From a virus (taxonomy: Duplodnaviria > Heunggongvirae > Uroviricota > Caudoviricetes): a stretch of DNA of 29,475 nucleotides. The notes under the pieces were generated by a model that was given only the letters and a program-made list of their open reading frames with translations, did no database searches and was not told the origin of the DNA. Of this stretch, positions 415 to 15,566 are shown piece by piece. Position 1 is the stretch's first letter, and each line of letters begins with the position of its first letter. The position numbers and the translations under genes were made by a program. The stretch covers positions 1-29,475 of the IMG/VR virus record IMGVR_UViG_2778261167_000005; one strand, 5' to 3'.

Positions 415-500
415 ACATTTCAGCTGATGACCACCACGCTTTTTATTGACCATTTTGCACGCAAACTGGAAAACCTGGCGTCGTCATCTATTCTTAAAGG

Positions 501-604
501 GCAAGGCAACTAAGCCTGCATTAATGCCAACTTTTAGCGCACGGCTCTCTCCCAAGAGCCATTTCCCTGGACCGAATACAGGAATCGTATTCGGTCTCTT
601 TTTA
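501..604 (+). ncRNA. sdsR: Small RNA resembling SdsR (RyeB), with sigma-S type -10 box and intrinsic terminator
   Basis: TCTATTCTTAA at 486..496 fits the sigma-S -10 consensus; transcript would begin near GCAAGGCAAC (501..510); internal hairpins at 527..536 and 544..561; perfect 10-bp stem GACCGAATAC/GTATTCGGTC (570..596) then TCTTTTT. Identity is from memory of the SdsR sequence and the yebY-adjacent locus. Confidence 0.55.
570..604 (+). terminator. Intrinsic terminator (3' end of the SdsR-like sRNA)
   Basis: 10-bp perfect stem, 7-nt loop AGGAATC, then TCTTTTTA. Confidence 0.75.
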
Positions 605-638
605 TGTGCTTGTTTTCGTTGGGTTTTTTCTGTGCTAT

Positions 639-8099: not shown

Positions 8100-9020
8100 T
8101 TAAAAAGGTAAATCAATTTGCCTTTGTGGGTTGATTATTTTTTTTACCTTCACTATCTCATATGAGGTTTTTATACCTTTATCAGCAAGATACTGAGTGA
8201 TTTTTAGATCAACGAGCAAAAGGTCGCCTTTTGCAAAAGCAACTGATTGCTCATCAATCGCATTGAGGAATTTCTCATCACTGACCTCGGCTTGAAATGG
8301 GCTTGCACCATCTGAAAAATTCCATTTATGGCCTTCTCGAAATGAGATATCAAGAGGATGAAGTGCTCTTTCTGTAACGGACTCAGAAATAATAGTTTCT
8401 TCAGTGCTGTCTACTTTGAAAAAACATGCTTCACTCTTTGTAACTTCAACAAAAGTATGACCATCATCGATAGTGACTGCAAAACTATCGATCCCATCCC
8501 TCTCCAATGGTTTAGAGATTACATTCTCAAGAGCTCTGCGTATTTTTTTATTTTTATATAAATCTATGACTTGATTGTCAAAAACCTCACTTTCATCATC
8601 GATGAAAATTGTGGAGCTACCGTCAAATGTTGGCTCAATACGTTTAATTTTTTTTGGACCTAACCATTTTATTAGCTGAATCAGGCCCTTATATGACTGC
8701 TTAGTGGCTAAGTAGCCAAAACCTACCAAGCTTATGATATTGCAAGCAGCGGAAGCATTATTTCCAGAAAAAACACCTAGTATTTGACTTGTTATGGATG
8801 TTGACTGCGCTATGAGATCAATTCCAAAGGAACCCGCTTTAAATGAAGCGTTGACTTTAATTGATATACGCCTTTCTTTTCCATAGATAGTTTTTCCCGC
8901 CTCTTCTAAAGCATCGGATAGTGACAAAAGCGCCGGCGCAAGATCACGTACATCCATCTCGTGCGTGTCCAAAGCTGGGCCGTCGTAAACTATTCTGAAC
9001 TTCATATCGTCACTATCCAT
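8100..9020 (-). CDS. Uncharacterized 306-aa protein in a low-GC moron downstream of the repressor (rex/sieB-equivalent position)
   Basis: Long ORF with ATG at 9020; distinctly AT-rich compared with flanking phage genes; co-oriented with the repressor; own terminator; no motif I recognise. Confidence 0.6.
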   Translation of the reverse strand: MDSDDMKFRIVYDGPALDTHEMDVRDLAPALLSLSDALEEAGKTIYGKERRISIKVNASFKAGSFGIDLIAQSTSITSQILGVFSGNNASAACNIISLVGFGYLATKQSYKGLIQLIKWLGPKKIKRIEPTFDGSSTIFIDDESEVFDNQVIDLYKNKKIRRALENVISKPLERDGIDSFAVTIDDGHTFVEVTKSEACFFKVDSTEETIISESVTERALHPLDISFREGHKWNFSDGASPFQAEVSDEKFLNAIDEQSVAFAKGDLLLVDLKITQYLADKGIKTSYEIVKVKKIINPQRQIDLPF

Positions 9021-9135
9021 CAATGCCTATCCTGTGCATGATTATAAACCTGATCGTATATACAGTACATTTAATAAGTCATTACTTAGATGTTCTCTTA
9101 CCCACTGCTACTCTCTATGCACTGACCAGAGGTCT

Positions 9136-9519
9136 TCAATCCCCCTGCGATCTGATCCGCCCCTTCATGTACTTCTCATACAACTCATCCAACTCTTTCA
9201 GGCGAATGGCAAAGATGCGGAGCATGTTCTGTTGCTCTTCTTCCGGTAGTTGGCGGTAGAGCTCCAGCAGACGCTGTTCGTCCGGCTTGAGGCCGTCTTT
9301 CTCATCGACATCCTCACCGAGTAACCAAGGTACCGAAACGCCAGCTGCATCAGCGATGGCCAGTGCAGATTGTTTGCTAATCCTTCCTGTTTTGAACCAG
9401 CTGGATACAGCTTGCTTACTGACACCAGCAATCTTGGCCATCTCCGTTTTGGAGAAGCCTTTATTGTTCAGTTCTGTGAGTCTCGAAATAAGACCGTCTG
9501 TCAATGTGTTTTCACTCAT
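9136..9519 (-). CDS. Prophage repressor, HTH XRE-family (RacR/CI-like, no peptidase domain)
   Basis: 127 aa from ATG 9519; HTH segment KTEMAKIAGVSKQAVSSWFK; divergent from the Cro-like gene; operators in the 97-bp intergenic region. Confidence 0.75.
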   Translation of the reverse strand: MSENTLTDGLISRLTELNNKGFSKTEMAKIAGVSKQAVSSWFKTGRISKQSALAIADAAGVSVPWLLGEDVDEKDGLKPDEQRLLELYRQLPEEEQQNMLRIFAIRLKELDELYEKYMKGRIRSQGD

Positions 9520-9616
9520 CTCATGATTGTAAATGATTGCTTTACTCTCTGATAGGGATGTATTGTTTGACACGTCAGTAAAACAATGCTTTACTTCCTT
9601 CATCTAAGGAGGTCCC
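9520..9616. promoter_or_regulatory. Immunity switch region: PR promoter plus two operators (O1 9577..9595, O2 9528..9546) and a candidate PRM
   Basis: PR: TTGACA 9567..9572, 17-bp spacer, TTTACT 9590..9595, AGGAGG RBS 9607..9612. O1 AGTAAAacaatgcTTTACT; O2 TGTAAAtgattgcTTTACT. Minus-strand TACAAT lies immediately before the repressor ATG. Confidence 0.65.
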
Positions 9617-9837: not shown

Positions 9838-10377
9838 ATGCAGACACTTACTTATCAGAATGATAGCGACATTACTCAAGGGGTAATGATAAATCGCGCT
9901 CAAGCGCGCAGGGGGCCGAGCCATGAAGATATTCGTGACGCGGTTCGCTCCTGGGCTGGCGCCGATGGCCAGGACGTAGTCACGGCTCTGATCATCGAAG
10001 AGTACCTGGCGCAAGGAGGTGATGAGATCACTTTTCCTGATGATCTCTGCCGAAAACGCCAGAAGCTGTTCCGCTTTCTGGACAACCACTTCAACAGTGA
10101 ACGGTACCGCGAGAACGTTCGCCAGCTGACTCCGGCAATCCTCGCAGTTCTGCCGATTGAATACCGCAACCGTCTGCTGCCAGAAGACAACATCATGGCT
10201 CGCCTGGCACGTATGGAGAAGGAAACCAGCGAAGCGAAGATAGCTGTCGCAATGGATGCGCCGCGTCATCAGAAGCTGAAAGAGCTGAGTGAAGGGATCG
10301 TGGAGATGTACCGCGTTGACCCTGGCTTAACCGGGCCGCTGATGGAAATGGTGCAGATGATGCTGGGGGTTGTATGA
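9838..10377 (+). CDS. YdaT-like protein (Rac YdaT family)
   Basis: 179 aa; conserved-looking segments EEYLAQGGDE and LTPAILAVLP recall E. coli YdaT; sits immediately after the Cro/YdaS-like gene as in Rac. Confidence 0.55.
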   Translation: MQTLTYQNDSDITQGVMINRAQARRGPSHEDIRDAVRSWAGADGQDVVTALIIEEYLAQGGDEITFPDDLCRKRQKLFRFLDNHFNSERYRENVRQLTPAILAVLPIEYRNRLLPEDNIMARLARMEKETSEAKIAVAMDAPRHQKLKELSEGIVEMYRVDPGLTGPLMEMVQMMLGVV

Positions 10378-10541
10378 CGGGTTCAAAAATGGCGAAAGCC
10401 GTGGTGCTCGAACACCAACGGCCTTCAGGTGCAAATGTAGAGACAAATGCAAAATCAGTATGCCCACACAATCATATTTTTACCAGTGGAAGTTCTGTTC
10501 ACTGGAACGATCTCATCGCTTTCATTTATCAGGAGGACGCA

Positions 10542-11381
10542 ATGGCCGGTGACTGGATAAAAATGCGCGCCGAGCTGCATACGCATCCGAAAATTGTCCG
10601 CATGTCGTCCGCTTTGAAAGCGGACAGATTGCGCGTTGTTGGTGGACTACATTCCGCATGGTGTCTTTTTGATGTCCATTCTACCGATGGTTTTCTTCAC
10701 GGATACACACCGGAAACTCTCGACGATTTAATCGGCTTCCCTGGCTTTGCGCGAGCAATGATTGCTGTCGGATGGCTGGAAGAAGAGGGTGAAAACCTAG
10801 TAATGCCGCGGTTTGATGTGCACAACGGACAGTCCGCCAAGCGTCGAGCACAGGATGCAGACAGGAAGAAAAAATCCCGCAAAATGTCCGCTTGTGATGC
10901 GGACAAAAAGGGGACCAGAGAAGAGAAGAGAAGAGAAGATATAAAAGATCAAAACCCAGAGAGAGAACGCGCGGGAGAAAACTCTTCCGTGGAAGTCATT
11001 TCTGGCAATGGAACTTCATCACCAACCATTCAACATCAACCGGCCGCTGAAGATTTCGGTGCTGGATGCGCGTTCGGTCCACTTGGCAAATTTCCAATCA
11101 CTGACTCCTGGGCTCCATCTCCTGATTTCGTTCGTCAGGCTGCACTCTGGGGAAAAAACGTCGGTGCAGAACCGGGTTACACCGCTGAAGAACTCCAGCA
11201 GTTCCGTGATTACTGGATCCCTGATGGCAAAGTTAAACACCAGTTGGCCTGGGAACAGACGTTTGCTGACAGCCTGTTGCAATCGCGTAGTCGAATCAAA
11301 AGGGCAAACTCTGCGGGATCGCGAGATGTGAACCGCATTTCTGAGCCAGATAAAACCATCCCAACCGGATTCAGGGGGTAA
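10542..11381 (+). CDS. Phage replication initiation protein (replisome organizer N-terminus, DnaT-like C-terminal domain)
   Basis: ATG 10542 with AGGAGG RBS; alternative upstream start 10374 overlaps the ydaT-like stop (ATGA). C-terminal ...FRDYWIPDGKVKHQLAWEQTFADSLL... is DnaT-like; internal palindromic repeats. Confidence 0.6.
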   Translation: MAGDWIKMRAELHTHPKIVRMSSALKADRLRVVGGLHSAWCLFDVHSTDGFLHGYTPETLDDLIGFPGFARAMIAVGWLEEEGENLVMPRFDVHNGQSAKRRAQDADRKKKSRKMSACDADKKGTREEKRREDIKDQNPERERAGENSSVEVISGNGTSSPTIQHQPAAEDFGAGCAFGPLGKFPITDSWAPSPDFVRQAALWGKNVGAEPGYTAEELQQFRDYWIPDGKVKHQLAWEQTFADSLLQSRSRIKRANSAGSRDVNRISEPDKTIPTGFRG

Positions 11382-11383
11382 GC

Positions 11384-11722
11384 ATGCCAAGACCAAATAC
11401 ACCAGAAGAGCAGGCGGCACTTATCCGGGTGATCATCGAAGAGGTGAAAATCCGTGGACGCTTAACCGTTAGCGAAGCATCACAGATGTTGTCGCTGCAT
11501 CGTCAGACTGCTGAGAAGTATTTCCGCGTAGCAGCCGAACGCGGCGAACTCATTCGTCACGGTCGTCTTGGATTGTTCAGGGACCGGAAGGCTGTGATTG
11601 ATTTTGATCTTCAGCGTTTTTCATACAGCTCGAGTAAGTCTGCGATTGAATTACCAGCCGATTTTCGGGGAAGCGCGGTTATGCGCCGGGTTATAGATAT
11701 CTTAGGGAGAATGCCAGCATGA
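11384..11722 (+). CDS. Hypothetical protein with predicted HTH
   Basis: 112 aa, AGGGGG RBS; segment LTVSEASQMLSLHRQTAEKYF is HTH-like. Confidence 0.5.
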   Translation: MPRPNTPEEQAALIRVIIEEVKIRGRLTVSEASQMLSLHRQTAEKYFRVAAERGELIRHGRLGLFRDRKAVIDFDLQRFSYSSSKSAIELPADFRGSAVMRRVIDILGRMPA

Positions 11723-12120
11723 AACCAACATACGAACAACTTGAACAGCAGGTGCTCGAACTGTCAGTACAGCTCGCTAACTCCGAGAGCAAGTGCAGGG
11801 AGCTGGCCGGGGTAGTTGCTGATAACACTGATTTAAAATCGCTGATTGAACAACATGCAGGCTCTATCGCTGTATGTCCTAACTGCTCACACGAAGAGCC
11901 AAGCGAAACTGACGATATCGTTGCGTTATATCGCTCACTGAAAACCCCAGCCACCGACGCTTTCCTGGCTGAAGTGCGGGTGCAGGGCGTGGAGATGTTT
12001 GCTGACTTCTGCGGTGAAGAAAACTCTGTATTCGTCGAGGCCAAGGCTTACTACCGTTCACTTGCGGATGCAGTTGAAGAGTTTGCCGCACAGCTACGCC
12101 AAGGAGCCGCGCATGAGTAA
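11719..12120 (+). CDS. Hypothetical phage protein with N-terminal coiled coil
   Basis: 133 aa, GGGAGA RBS, overlapping stop/start with neighbours. Confidence 0.5.
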   Translation: MKPTYEQLEQQVLELSVQLANSESKCRELAGVVADNTDLKSLIEQHAGSIAVCPNCSHEEPSETDDIVALYRSLKTPATDAFLAEVRVQGVEMFADFCGEENSVFVEAKAYYRSLADAVEEFAAQLRQGAAHE

Positions 12121-12589
12121 CGCAGCGACTGTTTTGGATGTGTGCTGCGGCTCCCGCATGTTCTGGTTCAACAAGCAGGACACCCGCGCCGTGTTCGCTG
12201 ATATCCGAGCCGAAGAGCACGAGCTGTGCGATGGTCGCCGCCTGGTTATCAGTCCCGACCTGATTTCCGACTTCCGTGCGTTGCCATTCGCCGACGCATC
12301 GTTTCCGGTTGTGGTGTTTGATCCACCACACCTTGAACGTGTCGGCCAAACAGCCTGGATGGGTAAAAAATACGGGCGACTGAACAAAAAAACGTGGCGT
12401 TCGGACCTGCGAGCCGGATTCAAAGAAGCTTTTCGCGTGTTGTGGCCACATGGTGTGCTCATCTTCAAATGGAACGAAACACAAATACCGGTTAGCCAGA
12501 TTCTGGCGCTTACAGACGTGAAACCGGCAATTGGCCAGCGAACTGGGAAGAACGACAAAACCCACTGGATTATCTTTGTGAAGGACTAA
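12113..12589 (+). CDS. Small class-I SAM-dependent methyltransferase (motif I LDVCCGS, motif IV DPPH); putative nucleic-acid amino-methyltransferase
   Basis: 158 aa; glycine-rich SAM motif near the N-terminus and VVFDPPH; AAGGAG RBS; start overlaps the upstream stop (ATGAGTAA). Confidence 0.6.
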   Translation: MSNAATVLDVCCGSRMFWFNKQDTRAVFADIRAEEHELCDGRRLVISPDLISDFRALPFADASFPVVVFDPPHLERVGQTAWMGKKYGRLNKKTWRSDLRAGFKEAFRVLWPHGVLIFKWNETQIPVSQILALTDVKPAIGQRTGKNDKTHWIIFVKD

Positions 12590-12748
12590 CCCATGACGAC
12601 TACCTTCGTTTTTCTGTAATCCAATGTAGTCTGGATGGTGTCACAATCGCATTGCCGAACACTCAACGTGATCAATTGTATAAAAAAAGCTCAGTCTGTG
12701 ATTGTTTATGATTAAGGGCATTGACGTTTTTTTATTGACTTGTTTTTT

Positions 12749-13381
12749 TTATTTTTTCATGACTCGTTTGGCTTTGCGTTCCATGCGGTTTAATGCCGCT
12801 CTTGAGTCGATCCGGTTCAAGTCTGCCTTACTTCGGATTAGACGTTCTTTCGGGTTCCATCCATGATCTAACTCAATTCGGAGTTGTTTCCGGATATCTG
12901 CTGATAAAGCTGCAACTTTCAGCCCTAAATCTGCGTAGAGCCTCCGGCGTTTCAACATGTATGAATCCATCATATCACTACCGAACTCCGGGTTAGAGGT
13001 CATCTCACGAAGTTCTTCTCTGACTTTCAACAATTCGATATCGATTGATTGCAAACGATAGATTAAGGTTGGTTCAAGGTACTTATATTCGCCTTTAACT
13101 GTGCTCATATCGAAATCAGGCGAGGGAACTTGTACTTCGAGACGGTCCGGATAATCCGGTTCCGGTGAGCTTGCATCGAATCCCCGATCCCAGGAAACAT
13201 CTGCACACTGACTAACGAATTTATCGAGCAGGAACACAAGTTGAACACTAATGTAAGCGCGTTCCTCTTTACGCTTTCTTATGTCGAACGCAACTTCTTT
13301 GATCAGGTTGAAACAAAGTGGAAAACCGATTGCAGCAGCACCAGCTAAAAAGCCTTGCATAGCAGGACTAAGACCGAACAT
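12749..13381 (-). CDS. Uncharacterized membrane-anchored protein (N-terminal TM helix), opposite-strand moron
   Basis: ORF on the minus strand inside a plus-strand operon; N-terminal hydrophobic segment FLAGAAAIGFPLCFNLI; lower GC; start uncertain (ATG 13381, ATG 13360 or TTG 13408), no clear SD. Confidence 0.5.
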   Translation of the reverse strand: MFGLSPAMQGFLAGAAAIGFPLCFNLIKEVAFDIRKRKEERAYISVQLVFLLDKFVSQCADVSWDRGFDASSPEPDYPDRLEVQVPSPDFDMSTVKGEYKYLEPTLIYRLQSIDIELLKVREELREMTSNPEFGSDMMDSYMLKRRRLYADLGLKVAALSADIRKQLRIELDHGWNPKERLIRSKADLNRIDSRAALNRMERKAKRVMKK

Positions 13382-13685
13382 ATGTGGACACCGAAAGAGA
13401 GCGAGCAAAGGATTATAAACGTAGTGATGGGGTGATTAAAACGCGTTGAACTGGCTGTTTTGAAATGGACTTTTAAACTTTGACTAAGGTCATTAAATCA
13501 TCGCGATTTGAAGTTTAAGCGAAAATAGTTGATGAGGGGTATTGACCTTTAGTGCTCGCCGGTGACAAGCCAACTCAGGAAGAGATTAATGATGCTGTAA
13601 GGGACGCGCGAATTACCCATCCGTGGAAATTCGCCTGGCATTGATTGATGTATAATCCCTCTCAATGTATCGAGGGGGATTATAC

Positions 13686-13943
13686 ATGTCGGACTGGAAC
13701 ATCGCAGCAAAATCGAAAGAAGAGCAGGACAAGGTTAACGTCGACCTTGCTGCCTCCGGAGTTGCGTACAAAGAGCGTCTGAACATGCCAGTTATCGCCG
13801 AGCAGGTATCCCGTGAGCAGCCAGAGCACTTACGCGAATACTTCATGGAGCGCGTTCGCTACTACCGCGAGCAAAGCCTGACGCTTCCAAAAGCATCCGA
13901 TCCGCGCTATCTGGATATGGCAGCCCAGAACGAGAAGAAGTAA
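13686..13943 (+). CDS. Small hypothetical protein (possibly the cold-shock-induced YnaE/YdfK family of Rac/Qin; uncertain)
   Basis: 85 aa, ATG 13686 with GAGGGGG RBS; preceded by a palindrome overlapping a TATAAT box. Confidence 0.45.
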
Positions 13944-14197
13944 TGGGATGTCTCATTGTTGGCGGCGTCAAGTTTTACACTCTGGCAGAAGGTGAGTCGT
14001 ATCCGGATCCGCATGCCGATAACCGGTATGTCGGTGCGTATGCCGTATTCCCATTCGAGGGAAAGTGGGTCGCTCAGAAGTATTTCAGGGGAGGGCACTG
14101 GAGAGATATCACCGAGCGCCGGTTCAACACCGAAAACGAGGCTTTCAACTTCACCTACGAATACGCGTTTCTCCCGGAAAACCGCTACAAATATTAG
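13943..14197 (+). CDS. Hypothetical small protein
   Basis: 84 aa; start overlaps the upstream stop (TAATG). Confidence 0.5.
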   Translation: MGCLIVGGVKFYTLAEGESYPDPHADNRYVGAYAVFPFEGKWVAQKYFRGGHWRDITERRFNTENEAFNFTYEYAFLPENRYKY

Positions 14198-14691
14198 TCG
14201 ATCGATAATACCGATCGATTTGATTAAATTGATCTATGAAATCGATTATCAAATAAGCACAGCGCAGCAACAAATTACCAACCTGACTTTCCTCGCCACG
14301 AGTGAAATATGTCCCCTGACGACATCGACACCTTTGTCATTTACCTGACGAGAGCATTCCAATCAGATATTTACAATCGACAGTTTTGACGTAGCCATCT
14401 GTTAAAAATAACGATCAATTTTTGCGCGAAAGTAGCAATAAAATTTATCTAAATCAATCGGATAAATGACCTTGCGCAAACAGGCCTTTCATGTGCATAC
14501 TTAAGCAAAACAGACAAATACTGTTTATATGTACAGTTGTTTTGGAGTATAGTTAAGATGTTGCAGTAAATAGTTTTATTTTTCTTCCAGCCAACCTATT
14601 AGGAAATTCGTGCCATTTGGTATGTTGGTTCAGTGAACGGGATTATCCCGGCTGGAAGAGTGAAATTTGTTGATAGCAAAGAGGGGGTTTT

Positions 14692-14966: not shown

Positions 14967-15566
14967 ATGGCGCACGAACTACAACTAATCAAGCAGTCTT
15001 CAGGAATCCTGATCCCCGCTACGCCGGAGACCAGTGATTTACTGCAATCAAAATTCAAACTCGGCGCCGTGCTGGTGGCCGAGTTCCGGCAGGTACGCAA
15101 TCCTGCCTTTCACCGTCGCTTCTTCGCGTTACTCAATCTCGGTTTCGAATACTGGGAACCCACCGGCGGGGCGATCTCATCCAACGAGCGCAAACTGGTA
15201 ACCGGCTACGCCAAATTTCTTGCCTCATTCGCGGGAAGCGAAGCCGCGCTCCTGGATGCTGCCGAACAATATCTCGACCGTATCGCCGATAAGCGAGCCG
15301 GTAGCATCAGCATCTGCAAATCCTATGACGCATACCGTGCGTGGGTGATCGTCGAGTCTGGCCACTACGACGCTATCCAGCTTCCTGACGGAACCCTTCG
15401 CAAACATCCCCGCAGTATTGCTTTTGCCAATATGGACGAAGCTGAGTTCCAGCAGCTGTACAAAGCCGCGTTGGATGTCCTCTGGCGCTGGATATTGTCC
15501 TGCACGTTCCGCACGCAGCAGGAGGCCGAGAACGCCGCCGCCCAACTGATGAGCTTCGGGGGATGA
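14967..15566 (+). CDS. Phage protein, probably DUF1367 family (nin region)
   Basis: 199 aa, GGAGA RBS; family recalled from lambdoid prophage annotations, not verified. Confidence 0.5.
   Translation: MAHELQLIKQSSGILIPATPETSDLLQSKFKLGAVLVAEFRQVRNPAFHRRFFALLNLGFEYWEPTGGAISSNERKLVTGYAKFLASFAGSEAALLDAAEQYLDRIADKRAGSISICKSYDAYRAWVIVESGHYDAIQLPDGTLRKHPRSIAFANMDEAEFQQLYKAALDVLWRWILSCTFRTQQEAENAAAQLMSFGG

What the first reader, a model, noticed from the sequence alone, without database searches (positions are those of the whole stretch)
12590..13685. Opposite-strand membrane-anchored gene inside the rightward early operon
ORF 12749..13381 runs against the flow of the replication/nin operon, is flanked by AT-rich spacers with promoter-like and terminator-like elements, and encodes about 210 aa with one N-terminal TM helix and a charged C-terminus. 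Its orientation and autonomy suggest an independently expressed moron such as a superinfection-exclusion or membrane-acting abortive-infection protein.
Basis: partly seen in the sequence, partly recalled or inferred. Interest (0 to 1): 0.6.

Follow-up and report, generated by a model that had tools for sequence, protein, structure and literature searches.

The report
Inverted membrane-protein moron, candidate phage defence
A real, self-contained 1-kb gene cassette sits backwards in the early operon of an E. coli lambdoid prophage. It encodes a membrane-anchored protein from a widespread, untested family that is catalogued only as an anti-phage defence candidate (PADLOC PDC-S67). It is a sensible target for a phage-challenge experiment but not a surprising kind of element.

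Summary
The ORF is real: 12749..13381, minus strand, 210 aa. It lies inverted between a methyltransferase gene and a theta-like gene in the replication/nin region of an E. coli prophage.

It is under purifying selection. It sits in a low-GC cassette (~12605-13648, GC 0.43 against ~0.51) that related prophages lack or replace with other cargo, so it fits the moron definition apart from a terminator.

The protein has an N-terminal TM helix, with the C-terminal domain predicted to be cytoplasmic. That domain is a confidently predicted four-helix bundle with no specific structural relative, and the tail is basic.

Pfam and NCBIfam find nothing. The only informative hit is PADLOC candidate PDC-S67 (E 2e-29), a family nominated by "guilt-by-embedding" and never tested.

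The family has 577 clusters at 50% identity across Proteobacteria. Members occur in prophages, often inverted again, and in plasmids, integrase islands and Tn7-like cargo. Their neighbours include Gabija, PD-T4-5, an MmeI-type RM enzyme and other candidates.

It is not homologous to SieB or SieA, but its gene organisation mirrors lambda and P22 sieB.

Best reading: a lysogen-expressed, single-gene anti-phage effector acting from the cytoplasmic face of the membrane. The function is inferred, not shown. A promoter is plausible (perfect TATAAT). No terminator was found.

The parts
12605..13648 (.). Cassette (moron): low-GC block that related prophages lack or replace with other cargo
   Evidence: Similarity to the L018 prophage ends at about 12604, and similarity to the L017 prophage starts at about 13649. 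GC is 0.429, against 0.517 on the left and 0.496 on the right. The cassette is 99.9% identical in a second E. coli prophage with a different backbone, L003.
12749..13381 (-). CDS, 210 aa: single-pass membrane protein, member of PADLOC candidate family PDC-S67
   Evidence: ORF list and translation. PDC-S67 match with E 2.2e-29, residues 20-196 on profile positions 13-188 of 203. phrog_33426 match with E 2e-11. Homologues. Purifying selection. AF2 model with pLDDT 88.3 and pTM 0.75.
13298..13366 (-). Codons 6-28: N-terminal transmembrane helix carrying a GxxxG motif (G10-G14) and the invariant P21, L22 and N25
   Evidence: Hydropathy and flanking charges. Invariant residues. The helix is continuous with the first bundle helix in the AF2 model, H6-63.
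13082..13207 (-). Codons 59-100: the most conserved segment (C59-x2-V62-x2-D65-x-G67 ... P88-x-F-D ... G97-E-x-K), at the end of helix 1 and through the ordered loop
   Evidence: Alignments A1 and A5 and the family-wide conservation analysis. Block-mean pLDDT over this region is 81-95.
12752..12871 (-). Codons 171-210: basic C-terminal helix (13 K/R, 5 D/E)
   Evidence: Charge count. Helix 177-209 in the model.
13412..13440 (-). Putative own promoter: -10 TATAAT (13417..13412) and weak -35 TTTAAT (13440..13435) with a 17-nt spacer. A weak SD-like GGTG lies 7 nt before the ATG.
   Evidence: Read directly from the sequence. It aligns with -10-like hexamers, TGnTATAAG or TAAAAT, in the Serratia, Rahnella, Proteus and Citrobacter loci. 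It was NOT called by the consensus scan.
12593..12619 (+). Eight-codon remnant of a small plus-strand ORF, truncated at the left junction of the cassette
   Evidence: The alignment with L018, where the corresponding ORF is 43 aa, stays similar up to about 12604.
13648..13687 (+). Right-hand boundary: 19-nt inverted repeat that overlaps the Shine-Dalgarno sequence and start of the theta-like gene. It belongs to the flank, not to the cassette.
   Evidence: Inverted repeat I2, 89% complementary. It is conserved in L017, which lacks the cassette and has an intrinsic terminator immediately upstream.
12113..12589 (+). Left flanking gene: class I SAM-dependent (DNA) methyltransferase, 158 aa
   Evidence: phrog_954 match with E 6e-85. 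Called gene in L001. RefSeq annotation of the homologue in L018.
13686..13943 (+). Right flanking gene: DNA polymerase III theta-like protein (HolE/Hot-like), 85 aa
   Evidence: PF06440 match with E 6e-36. Called gene in L001. RefSeq annotation in L017 and L018.

Best explanation
The locus is an autonomous, horizontally exchanged cassette (a moron). It is inserted backwards at the boundary between the replication module and the nin region of an E. coli lambdoid (Rac-like) prophage. From my knowledge of lambda, this slot corresponds to its ren/tR2 position.

It encodes one 210-aa protein. A short N-terminus faces the periplasm. A glycine-rich TM helix (GxxxG) runs straight into a cytoplasmic four-helix bundle. 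The bundle carries a strongly conserved Cys-Asp-Gly / Pro / Arg patch and ends in a basic helix.

The most likely function is a single-gene anti-phage effector of the abortive-infection or exclusion type.
- It would be transcribed from its own weak constitutive promoter in the lysogen, when the rightward early operon is repressed.
- Its cytoplasmic bundle would sense a product or consequence of infection by another phage.
- It would then act at the inner membrane, for example by TM-driven oligomerisation that perturbs membrane integrity or a membrane-bound host factor.
- During the prophage's own induction, convergent early transcription would oppose its expression.

What is shown: the gene is real, the cassette is mobile, and the protein belongs to a family with the predicted membrane anchor, topology signal and fold. 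The family's association with defence genes and mobile elements is also shown.

What is inferred: expression in the lysogen, anti-phage activity, the trigger, the membrane-perturbing step, and silencing by convergent transcription.
For: Gene reality and selection.

Cassette status:
- Megablast breakpoints and junction alignments.
- A related prophage has no gene upstream of theta at this position (L017). Another has different cargo between the same methyltransferase and theta (L018).
- GC is 0.429 against about 0.51.
- The same cassette occurs in two different prophage backbones.

Autonomy:
- Inverted orientation, with 267-nt upstream and 144-nt downstream non-coding flanks inside the cassette.
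- A perfect -10 hexamer conserved in position in sister loci.
- Homologues are again inverted inside early operons of unrelated prophages: Serratia L023, L030 and L031, and Rhizobium L040.

Membrane anchor and topology.

Fold: pLDDT 88, helices 6-63, 104-129, 135-167 and 177-209.

Defence association:
- PDC-S67 HMM match, E 2.2e-29.
- Neighbours are GajA (about 5 kb downstream), PD-T4-5, PDC-S64/HEC-08-like and PDC-S31.
- One member is packed between an MmeI-type RM enzyme and a T5orf172 protein. Another is Tn7-like cargo beside a 975-aa DEAD/ResIII helicase.
- The same prophage carries a second candidate, PDC-S42, next to its repressor.

No housekeeping homology.

Organisational precedent: lambda and P22 sieB are inverted genes inside the early-left operon. 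P22 sieB has an annotated promoter of its own.
Against: - No experiment supports any function. PDC families are computational candidates, and only the HEC systems of that study were tested.
- The promoter fails the scan's criteria and no terminator is detectable.
- The TM segment of this particular copy is only moderately hydrophobic (Kyte-Doolittle 1.51).
- Defence neighbours are common on all mobile elements, so co-location is weak evidence.
- In the distant branch the gene sometimes looks like part of a multi-gene array (L038, L041). The solo Enterobacterales form might therefore not be sufficient on its own.
- The cassette is rare: there is no megablast match in 5,426 complete E. coli genomes.
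Confidence: 0.5

Rival explanations
1. Superinfection-exclusion protein in the strict sense. It blocks DNA entry of incoming phages at the inner membrane, as P22 SieA, T4 Imm or HK97 gp15 do (comparison from my own knowledge), without killing the cell.
For: - Prophage-encoded, membrane-anchored, small and autonomously placed.
- Proteins of this kind are typically orphan families without Pfam domains.
- It could act from the cytoplasmic face on an inner-membrane channel that phages use for entry (inference).
Against: - In 172 of 173 family members the charge bias places all but about 5-8 residues in the cytoplasm. Little is therefore exposed to the periplasm, where tail and tape-measure proteins arrive.
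- There is no homology to SieA (hhalign probability 0.5%).
- The family occurs widely on plasmids, Tn7-like elements and islands, and across Alpha-, Beta-, Gamma- and Zetaproteobacteria. That argues against adaptation to one phage-entry route.
Confidence: 0.15
2. An accessory membrane protein of mobile elements with a role other than defence. Examples are a modulator of host envelope physiology or stress, a counter-defence factor, or a factor functionally tied to the DNA methyltransferases it often neighbours.
For: - Function is wholly unknown and there is no catalytic motif.
- DNA methyltransferase genes recur next to family members: the window's class I SAM methyltransferase, MT-A70 and DNA_methylase in L023, Dam in L040, and MmeI in L041.
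- Guilt-by-association has a substantial false-positive rate.
Against: - Partners are not conserved. Neighbours differ in nearly every context examined.
- Methyltransferases are simply common in prophage early regions and in RM islands.
- The variable-slot, low-GC, inverted arrangement, together with co-location with Gabija, PD-T4-5 and RM genes, is the typical signature of defence cargo.
Confidence: 0.25
3. A regulator of the prophage's own life cycle, for example a lysis-timing or antiholin-like factor, a cell-division inhibitor, or a factor affecting induction.
For: It is a small membrane protein in a lambdoid prophage, and the window also carries KilR- and YdaE-type genes in its early-left region.
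Against: - It is inverted relative to the lytic operons, so it would be opposed by them during lytic growth.
- It is absent from closely related prophages.
- It is present on plasmids, transposon cargo and non-phage islands.
- It has no similarity to holins, antiholins or spanins in Pfam or PHROGs.
Confidence: 0.06
4. A non-functional or spurious antisense ORF.
For: The Shine-Dalgarno sequence is weak, no promoter or terminator was called by the scan, and the gene is rare in E. coli.
Against: - There are hundreds of full-length homologues of constant length.
- The codon-position pattern is that of purifying selection.
- The structure prediction is confident.
- The identical protein occurs on 59 contigs.
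Confidence: 0.02

Closest known systems
PADLOC phage-defence candidate PDC-S67 (single-gene candidate from the 'guilt-by-embedding' study, bioRxiv 10.1101/2024.01.29.577857)
   Same: The sequence matches the model over nearly its whole length (E 2.2e-29). It is a single gene without a conserved partner in Enterobacterales. It is found on mobile elements near other defence genes.
   Different: The candidate label carries no demonstrated function or mechanism. The window copy is not embedded in a BREX, DISARM or type I RM system but in a prophage early operon. At about 100 bits it is probably a divergent, Enterobacterales-specific branch of the family.
SieB of phages lambda and P22 (abortive exclusion of superinfecting phages)
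   Same: The gene organisation is the same. Each encodes a roughly 185-210 aa protein on the strand opposite to an early operon. P22 sieB is annotated with its own promoter. Each sits in a prophage.
   Different: No sequence relationship exists: hhalign probability is 0.07% for lambda and 0.2% for P22, and there is no hit to any Pfam family. The location also differs, being the rightward replication/nin boundary rather than the leftward N-ral region. No internal-start Esc-like self-immunity product is evident.
Morons of lambdoid phages (Hendrix/Juhala definition; my knowledge)
   Same: It is present or absent between conserved flanking genes, its base composition is distinct, and it is a separate transcription unit by orientation.
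   Different: The canonical moron has a recognisable promoter and a factor-independent terminator. Here the promoter is only plausible and no terminator is detectable.
Single-pass membrane exclusion proteins (P22 SieA, T4 Imm, HK97 gp15; my knowledge)
   Same: It is a small, phage-encoded inner-membrane protein expressed independently of the lytic programme.
   Different: There is no homology to SieA. The predicted bulk domain is cytoplasmic and folds as a four-helix bundle. The family is far more widespread taxonomically.

Membership tests
PADLOC PDC-S67 | Match to the family HMM over most of its length | tested here: met
   E 2.2e-29, 100 bits, residues 20-196 on profile positions 13-188 of 203. 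It is the only PADLOC family hit.
PADLOC PDC-S67 | Single-gene system with no conserved partner gene | tested here: met
   The window cassette holds one gene. Neighbours differ among more than 10 contexts. Caveat: in L038 and L041 the gene abuts other genes in the same direction.
PADLOC PDC-S67 | Some family members embedded in BREX, DISARM or type I RM loci (the basis of the candidate call) | tested here: inconclusive
   This is not the case in the window. The closest observation is L041/L042, where the gene lies in a co-directional array with an MmeI-type (type IIL) RM enzyme and a T5orf172 protein. The paper's supplements do not list 'S67' in the held text.
PADLOC PDC-S67 | Anti-phage activity | not testable with these tools
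   PDC systems were not tested experimentally in the source study. No paper in the library mentions the family, its accessions or its sequence.
Moron (lambdoid phage accessory cassette) | Present between two genes that are adjacent, or differently filled, in related phages | tested here: met
   In L017 the genes upstream of theta run straight into it with no inverted gene. In L018 the same methyltransferase and theta are separated by other cargo. Breakpoints are at about 12604 and 13649.
Moron (lambdoid phage accessory cassette) | Base composition distinct from the surrounding genome | tested here: met
   GC is 0.429 against flanks of 0.517 and 0.496 (profile).
Moron (lambdoid phage accessory cassette) | Own promoter | tested here: inconclusive
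   No site passes the consensus scan. A perfect TATAAT with a 3-of-6 -35 lies at 13412-13440, positionally conserved with -10-like hexamers in sister loci. Transcript mapping is needed.
Moron (lambdoid phage accessory cassette) | Own factor-independent terminator | tested here: not met
   No terminators were found in 12300-13900. Folds of the 3' flank have z-scores of -0.04 and +0.76.
SieB family (PF14163) | Sequence or profile similarity to SieB | tested here: not met
   There is no Pfam hit even at E <= 10. The hhalign probability is 0.07% against lambda SieB and 0.2% against P22 SieB.
SieA (P22) | Sequence or profile similarity to SieA | tested here: not met
   The hhalign probability is 0.5%, and only the hydrophobic helix aligns.
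Single-pass N-out/C-in inner-membrane proteins | One hydrophobic helix of about 20 residues with a positive-inside charge bias | tested here: met
   In the window protein, residues 9-27 score 1.51, with 0 K/R before and 6 K/R after. Across the family the median score is 1.82, and 172 of 173 members have more K/R on the C-terminal flank.
Single-pass N-out/C-in inner-membrane proteins | Experimentally determined membrane insertion and topology | not testable with these tools
   This needs fractionation or PhoA/LacZ/GFP fusions.
All-alpha dATP/dGTP pyrophosphohydrolase (PF04447, MazG-like) | Pfam match above threshold | tested here: not met
   Only 6 of 33 closely related members give sub-threshold hits (best E 0.002). 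The window protein gives none, and ten more divergent members give none.

The most novel reading that the evidence does not exclude
PDC-S67 proteins are a new class of single-gene, membrane-anchored anti-phage effectors with a fold that has no characterised relative. A cytoplasmic four-helix bundle with a conserved Cys/Asp/Arg patch would sense infection. It would switch a GxxxG transmembrane helix into an oligomer that collapses the membrane potential. In lambdoid prophages, self-immunity would come from gene orientation rather than from an antidote protein: convergent early transcription would silence the cassette on induction.
Probability: 0.25. Interest if true: 0.65.

Novelty: new member of a known kind. 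Interest (0 to 1): 0.45.

Why it matters
If the protein does protect against phages, an untested computational candidate (PDC-S67) would become a validated defence family. The family is present across Proteobacteria, in 577 clusters at 50% identity.

It would also add a compact 210-aa membrane effector whose fold has no characterised relative. And it would give a clean example of how a prophage places defence cargo antisense in an early operon, so that the cargo is on in the lysogen and opposed during induction.

The cassette is only about 1 kb and its host is E. coli, so the test is cheap. If the protein has no phage phenotype, that is a useful calibration of the false-positive rate of 'guilt-by-embedding' candidates.

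Tried and rejected
- **Curated families.** Pfam (single protein and all 33 alignment members, up to E 10), NCBIfam and PDB sequence profiles gave no meaningful hit. PHROGs gave only an unknown-function family.
- **Weak PF04447 hits.** Six of 33 members gave weak hits to PF04447 (all-alpha dNTP pyrophosphohydrolase). I followed this up and dropped it: the window protein and ten more divergent members give no hit.
- **Fold searches.**
  - Foldseek against PDB had a best E of 0.33.
  - Foldseek against BFVD gave one significant hit to an uncharacterised Myoviridae protein and a non-significant one to an HP1 ORF in the int-C1 region.
  - The afdb50 library was unavailable.
- **DNA searches.** Megablast of the locus found nothing in 50,697 phage records or 5,426 complete E. 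coli genomes. tblastn found only two distant phage copies, in a Klebsiella phage and a Ralstonia phage.
- **DUF2971 as an obligate partner.** It lies beside the gene in two islands, but it is absent from the window and was not detected by BLASTP in the other loci screened at that stage. It is itself another candidate, PDC-S31.
- **Terminators.** Neither a terminator search nor RNA folding of the 3' flank gave support.
- **Upstream elements.** There is no LexA-box-like element upstream, and no flanking direct repeats suggest transposition.
- **Literature.** The family name, six accessions and three peptide words gave no paper. The supplements of the PADLOC-candidate and DefensePredictor papers hold no occurrence.
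- **Viral-contig scan.** The scan with the broad alignment failed for lack of a conserved stretch. It was repeated with the close alignment.
Full report
**1. What is there**

The window is an E. coli lambdoid (Rac-like) prophage.
- Positions 2749-23381 are 100% identical to contig NTPA01000024.1 of assembly GCA_002463585.1.
- It is integrated next to the chromosomal SraC/RyeA-SdsR/RyeB sRNA locus.

The rightward early genes all lie on the plus strand:
- a YdaS/YdaT-type pair
- a DnaT-domain replication initiator (10374-11381)
- DUF977 (11384-11722)
- a phrog_492 protein
- a class I SAM methyltransferase (12113-12589)
- a DNA polymerase III theta-like gene (13686-13943)
- phrog_17759
- NinB/DUF1367 (14967-15566)
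- NinG and a Q-type antiterminator

Between the methyltransferase and theta genes lies the reported ORF, on the minus strand at 12749..13381 (ATG start, 210 aa).
- An in-frame TTG at 13408 would add nine residues.
- Homologues start at the position of the ATG.
- The putative -10 element lies so close to the TTG that a transcript from it would probably start downstream of that codon.

**2. Is it more than chance?**

Yes.
- The identical protein is recorded on 59 contigs. There are 60 close homologues in Enterobacterales, including E. coli, Salmonella, Citrobacter, Enterobacter, Leclercia, Kluyvera, Serratia, Yersinia, Pectobacterium, Rahnella and Proteus.
- A profile search of 1.84 billion cluster representatives finds 577 relatives (207 at E <= 1e-10). 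Nearly all are 185-235 aa and match in one stretch, so this is a stand-alone single-domain family.
- A second search shows the distant branch in Alpha-, Beta-, Gamma- and Zetaproteobacteria.
- Against seven homologues, nucleotide identity follows codon position 2 > 1 > 3, for example 0.84/0.70/0.46. This is the signature of selection on the protein.

**3. The cassette**

The locus is a GC trough in the composition profile.
- Megablast against 5,426 complete E. coli genomes finds the flanking genes but never the ORF.
- In strain H6 (L017), the gene upstream of theta runs straight into it, separated only by an intrinsic terminator.
- In strain 2018-10-1CC (L018), the same methyltransferase and theta are separated by about 1.15 kb of unrelated cargo.
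- Junction alignments put the breakpoints at about 12604 and about 13649.
- The left junction leaves an eight-codon stump (12593-12619) of the small ORF that follows the methyltransferase in L018.
- The right junction abuts a 19-nt inverted repeat that overlaps the theta ribosome-binding site and is conserved in L017.
- The block 12605-13648 has GC 0.429, against 0.517 and 0.496 on either side.
- The same cassette (99.9% identical) occurs in a second E. coli prophage whose replication, Q and lysis modules differ. It therefore moves with the local module by mosaic recombination.

This satisfies the present/absent and composition criteria for a moron.

The promoter criterion is unresolved.
- The scan calls nothing upstream.
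- There is a perfect TATAAT at 13417..13412, with a 3-of-6 -35 hexamer 17 nt away.
- It aligns with TGnTATAAG or TAAAAT elements at the same distance from the start codon in the Serratia, Rahnella, Proteus and Citrobacter loci.

The terminator criterion fails.

**4. The protein**

- Residues 6-28 are hydrophobic and glycine/alanine-rich (G10xxxG14), with invariant P21, L22 and N25. The Kyte-Doolittle score is only 1.51 in this copy.
- Across 173 family members the median score is 1.82 and 70% reach 1.6. In 172 of 173 there are more Lys/Arg on the C-terminal flank, and 72% carry GxxxG.
- By the positive-inside rule, the N-terminus is periplasmic and the rest cytoplasmic.
- AlphaFold2 with a 33-sequence alignment gives pLDDT 88.3 and pTM 0.75. 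It predicts one 58-residue helix (6-63) that continues from the membrane into a bundle with helices 104-129, 135-167 and 177-209, plus an ordered loop at 64-103.
- Family-wide conserved residues cluster at the end of helix 1 and the start of the loop (C59, V62, D65, G67), at P88 and Y108, and in helix 3 (R145, L152, G153, R164).
- The last 40 residues are basic.

No curated family matches.
- Pfam and NCBIfam give nothing.
- A PDB sequence-profile search gives nothing.
- Foldseek against PDB has a best E of 0.33.
- Foldseek against viral models gives one uncharacterised Myoviridae protein.
- PHROGs gives phrog_33426, of unknown function.

**5. The one informative match**

PADLOC's model PDC-S67 matches at E 2.2e-29 over 176 of 203 profile positions.
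- According to the source study, PDC systems are genes found embedded in BREX, DISARM or type I RM loci, curated to exclude known functions, and added to PADLOC for future testing. Only the separate HEC-01 to HEC-09 set was tested.
- Neither 'PDC-S67', six accessions of family members, nor three peptide words occur in any paper of the library. They are also absent from the supplements of that study and of the DefensePredictor paper.

The family is therefore catalogued but uncharacterised.

**6. Context of relatives**

The family is cargo of many kinds of mobile element.

| Locus | Host and element | Neighbours or arrangement |
|---|---|---|
| L023, L030, L031 | Serratia prophages | Inverted inside the leftward early operon, between MT-A70-side genes and a DNA methylase |
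| L040 | Rhizobium prophage-like region | Inverted inside an operon that contains Dam |
| L025 | Serratia conjugative plasmid | Beside an Mrr-like gene, PD-T4-5 (E 4e-126) and a PDC-S64/HEC-08-like gene |
| L021 | Yersinia CP4-57-like island | GajA (E 1e-241) and a UvrD helicase about 5 kb downstream |
| L005 | Serratia, ssrA-linked island | Beside DUF2971 = PDC-S31 |
| L007 | Enterobacter, nfsA-rimK islet | Beside DUF2971 = PDC-S31 |
| L019 | Pectobacterium integrase island | No defence gene identified |
| L039 | Burkholderia Tn7-like cargo | Next to a 975-aa DEAD/ResIII helicase |
| L041, L042 | Metagenomic integrase island | Packed co-directionally between an MmeI-type RM enzyme and a T5orf172 protein |

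- No partner is conserved, so in Enterobacterales it is a solo gene.
- In L038 and L041 it may be part of a larger array.
- The window's prophage carries a second candidate, PDC-S42 (E 1e-87), directly downstream of its cI-like repressor. That is the classical rexAB position.

**7. Mechanism**

What is shown:
- an autonomous, mobile, selected gene
- a family with a predicted N-out/C-in anchor and a cytoplasmic helical bundle
- association with defence loci and mobile elements

What I infer:
- The gene is transcribed in the lysogen from its own weak promoter while the rightward operon is repressed.
- It protects the lysogen against other phages.
- Because almost the whole protein is cytoplasmic, it more probably senses an intracellular cue and acts on the membrane or on a membrane-bound factor. 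That is Abi-like. The GxxxG helix suggests oligomerisation. A periplasmic block of DNA entry seems less likely.
- On induction, convergent transcription from the early promoter would oppose its expression. This is a possible route to self-immunity, since no antidote gene is present.

I put about 0.5 on the anti-phage reading overall and much less on any specific step. The rivals are:
- strict entry exclusion (0.15)
- a non-defence accessory membrane role, possibly linked to the recurrent neighbouring methyltransferases (0.25)
- a role in the prophage's own life cycle (0.06)
- a spurious ORF (0.02, effectively excluded)

**8. Comparison with known systems**

The closest organisational analogue is sieB of lambda and P22.
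- Both encode a protein of about 185-192 aa.
- Both genes lie on the strand opposite to an early operon. P22 sieB has an annotated promoter of its own.
- There is no homology: hhalign probability is 0.07-0.2% for SieB and 0.5% for P22 SieA.

The locus is a member of the PDC-S67 candidate family by HMM. It is a moron by three of four criteria. It is not a member of any characterised exclusion or Abi family.

**9. Verdict**

Its interpretation is reasonable and now has independent circumstantial support, but it remains untested.

This is an ordinary kind of element, a prophage moron with a likely defence role. It encodes an uncharacterised, widespread protein family. Novelty: new member of a known kind. 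Interest: 0.45.

Noticed in passing
window 8100-9023 (-): A 307-aa gene immediately downstream of the cI-like repressor (9136-9603, minus strand) matches another PADLOC candidate, PDC-S42, at E 1.3e-87. This is the classical rexAB position. The prophage therefore carries two untested defence candidates.
   Followed up: partly
window 463-607 and 681-1766: SraC/RyeA (minus strand, 177 bits) and SdsR/RyeB (plus strand, 116 bits) sRNA genes lie just outside a 361-aa minus-strand ORF that I take, from its position, to be the integrase. The prophage appears to be integrated beside the ryeA/ryeB locus.
   Followed up: no
window 18157-18253 (+): An Rfam match to isrI, an Hfq-binding sRNA (57.6 bits against a gathering score of 45), lies between the Q-type antiterminator and the lysis genes.
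   Followed up: no
window 13648-13687 (+): A 19-nt inverted repeat (89% complementary) overlaps the Shine-Dalgarno sequence and start codon of the theta-like gene. It is conserved in E. coli H6 (L017), where an intrinsic terminator (CCGCTTCGGCGG followed by a T-run) sits immediately upstream. It may control translation or transcription of the theta/nin genes.
   Followed up: partly
window 14198-14691: An AT-rich stretch of about 500 nt (GC about 0.36-0.39) has no convincing gene: the only ORFs of 40 aa or more there are the 3' end of a 130-aa TTG ORF (13956-14348) that overlaps the phrog_17759 gene, and a 40-aa minus-strand ORF. It has no Rfam match. It lies between phrog_17759 and a 79-aa ORF. 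It may be another cargo slot or a regulatory region.
   Followed up: no
window 12593-12619 (+): This is an eight-codon stump of a small ORF that is 43 aa in a related prophage (L018 4457-4588). It was truncated by the cassette's left junction and so marks the recombination breakpoint.
   Followed up: yes
L018 4677-4768: In E. coli 2018-10-1CC, the equivalent slot between the methyltransferase and theta genes holds different cargo. This includes a feature annotated as tRNA-Ile on the opposite strand. The slot is a variable cargo site.
   Followed up: no
L005 8859-9977; L007 8701-10451: DUF2971 genes (PADLOC candidate PDC-S31) lie convergent and adjacent to the homologue in two unrelated chromosomal islands, one in Serratia and one in Enterobacter. 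None was detected by BLASTP near the homologue in the loci screened at that stage (L001, L003, L010-L016), and the window has none adjacent. This may be co-location in defence islets rather than a functional pairing.
   Followed up: partly
window 12113-12589; L023 7150-7797 and 9850-10743; L040 10172-10708; L041 3074-5830: DNA methyltransferase genes of four different types (class I SAM, MT-A70 plus C5 DNA_methylase, Dam, MmeI) lie next to or near family members in independent contexts. This could be coincidence of prophage early-region and RM-island location, or it could be a functional link.
   Followed up: no
L038 6936-8603; L041 3074-11881: In the distant branch the homologue abuts other genes in the same direction. 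In Mariprofundus an unknown 354-aa gene ends one base before the homologue starts. In a metagenomic island there is a six-to-seven-gene array. Some relatives may therefore work in multi-gene systems.
   Followed up: no
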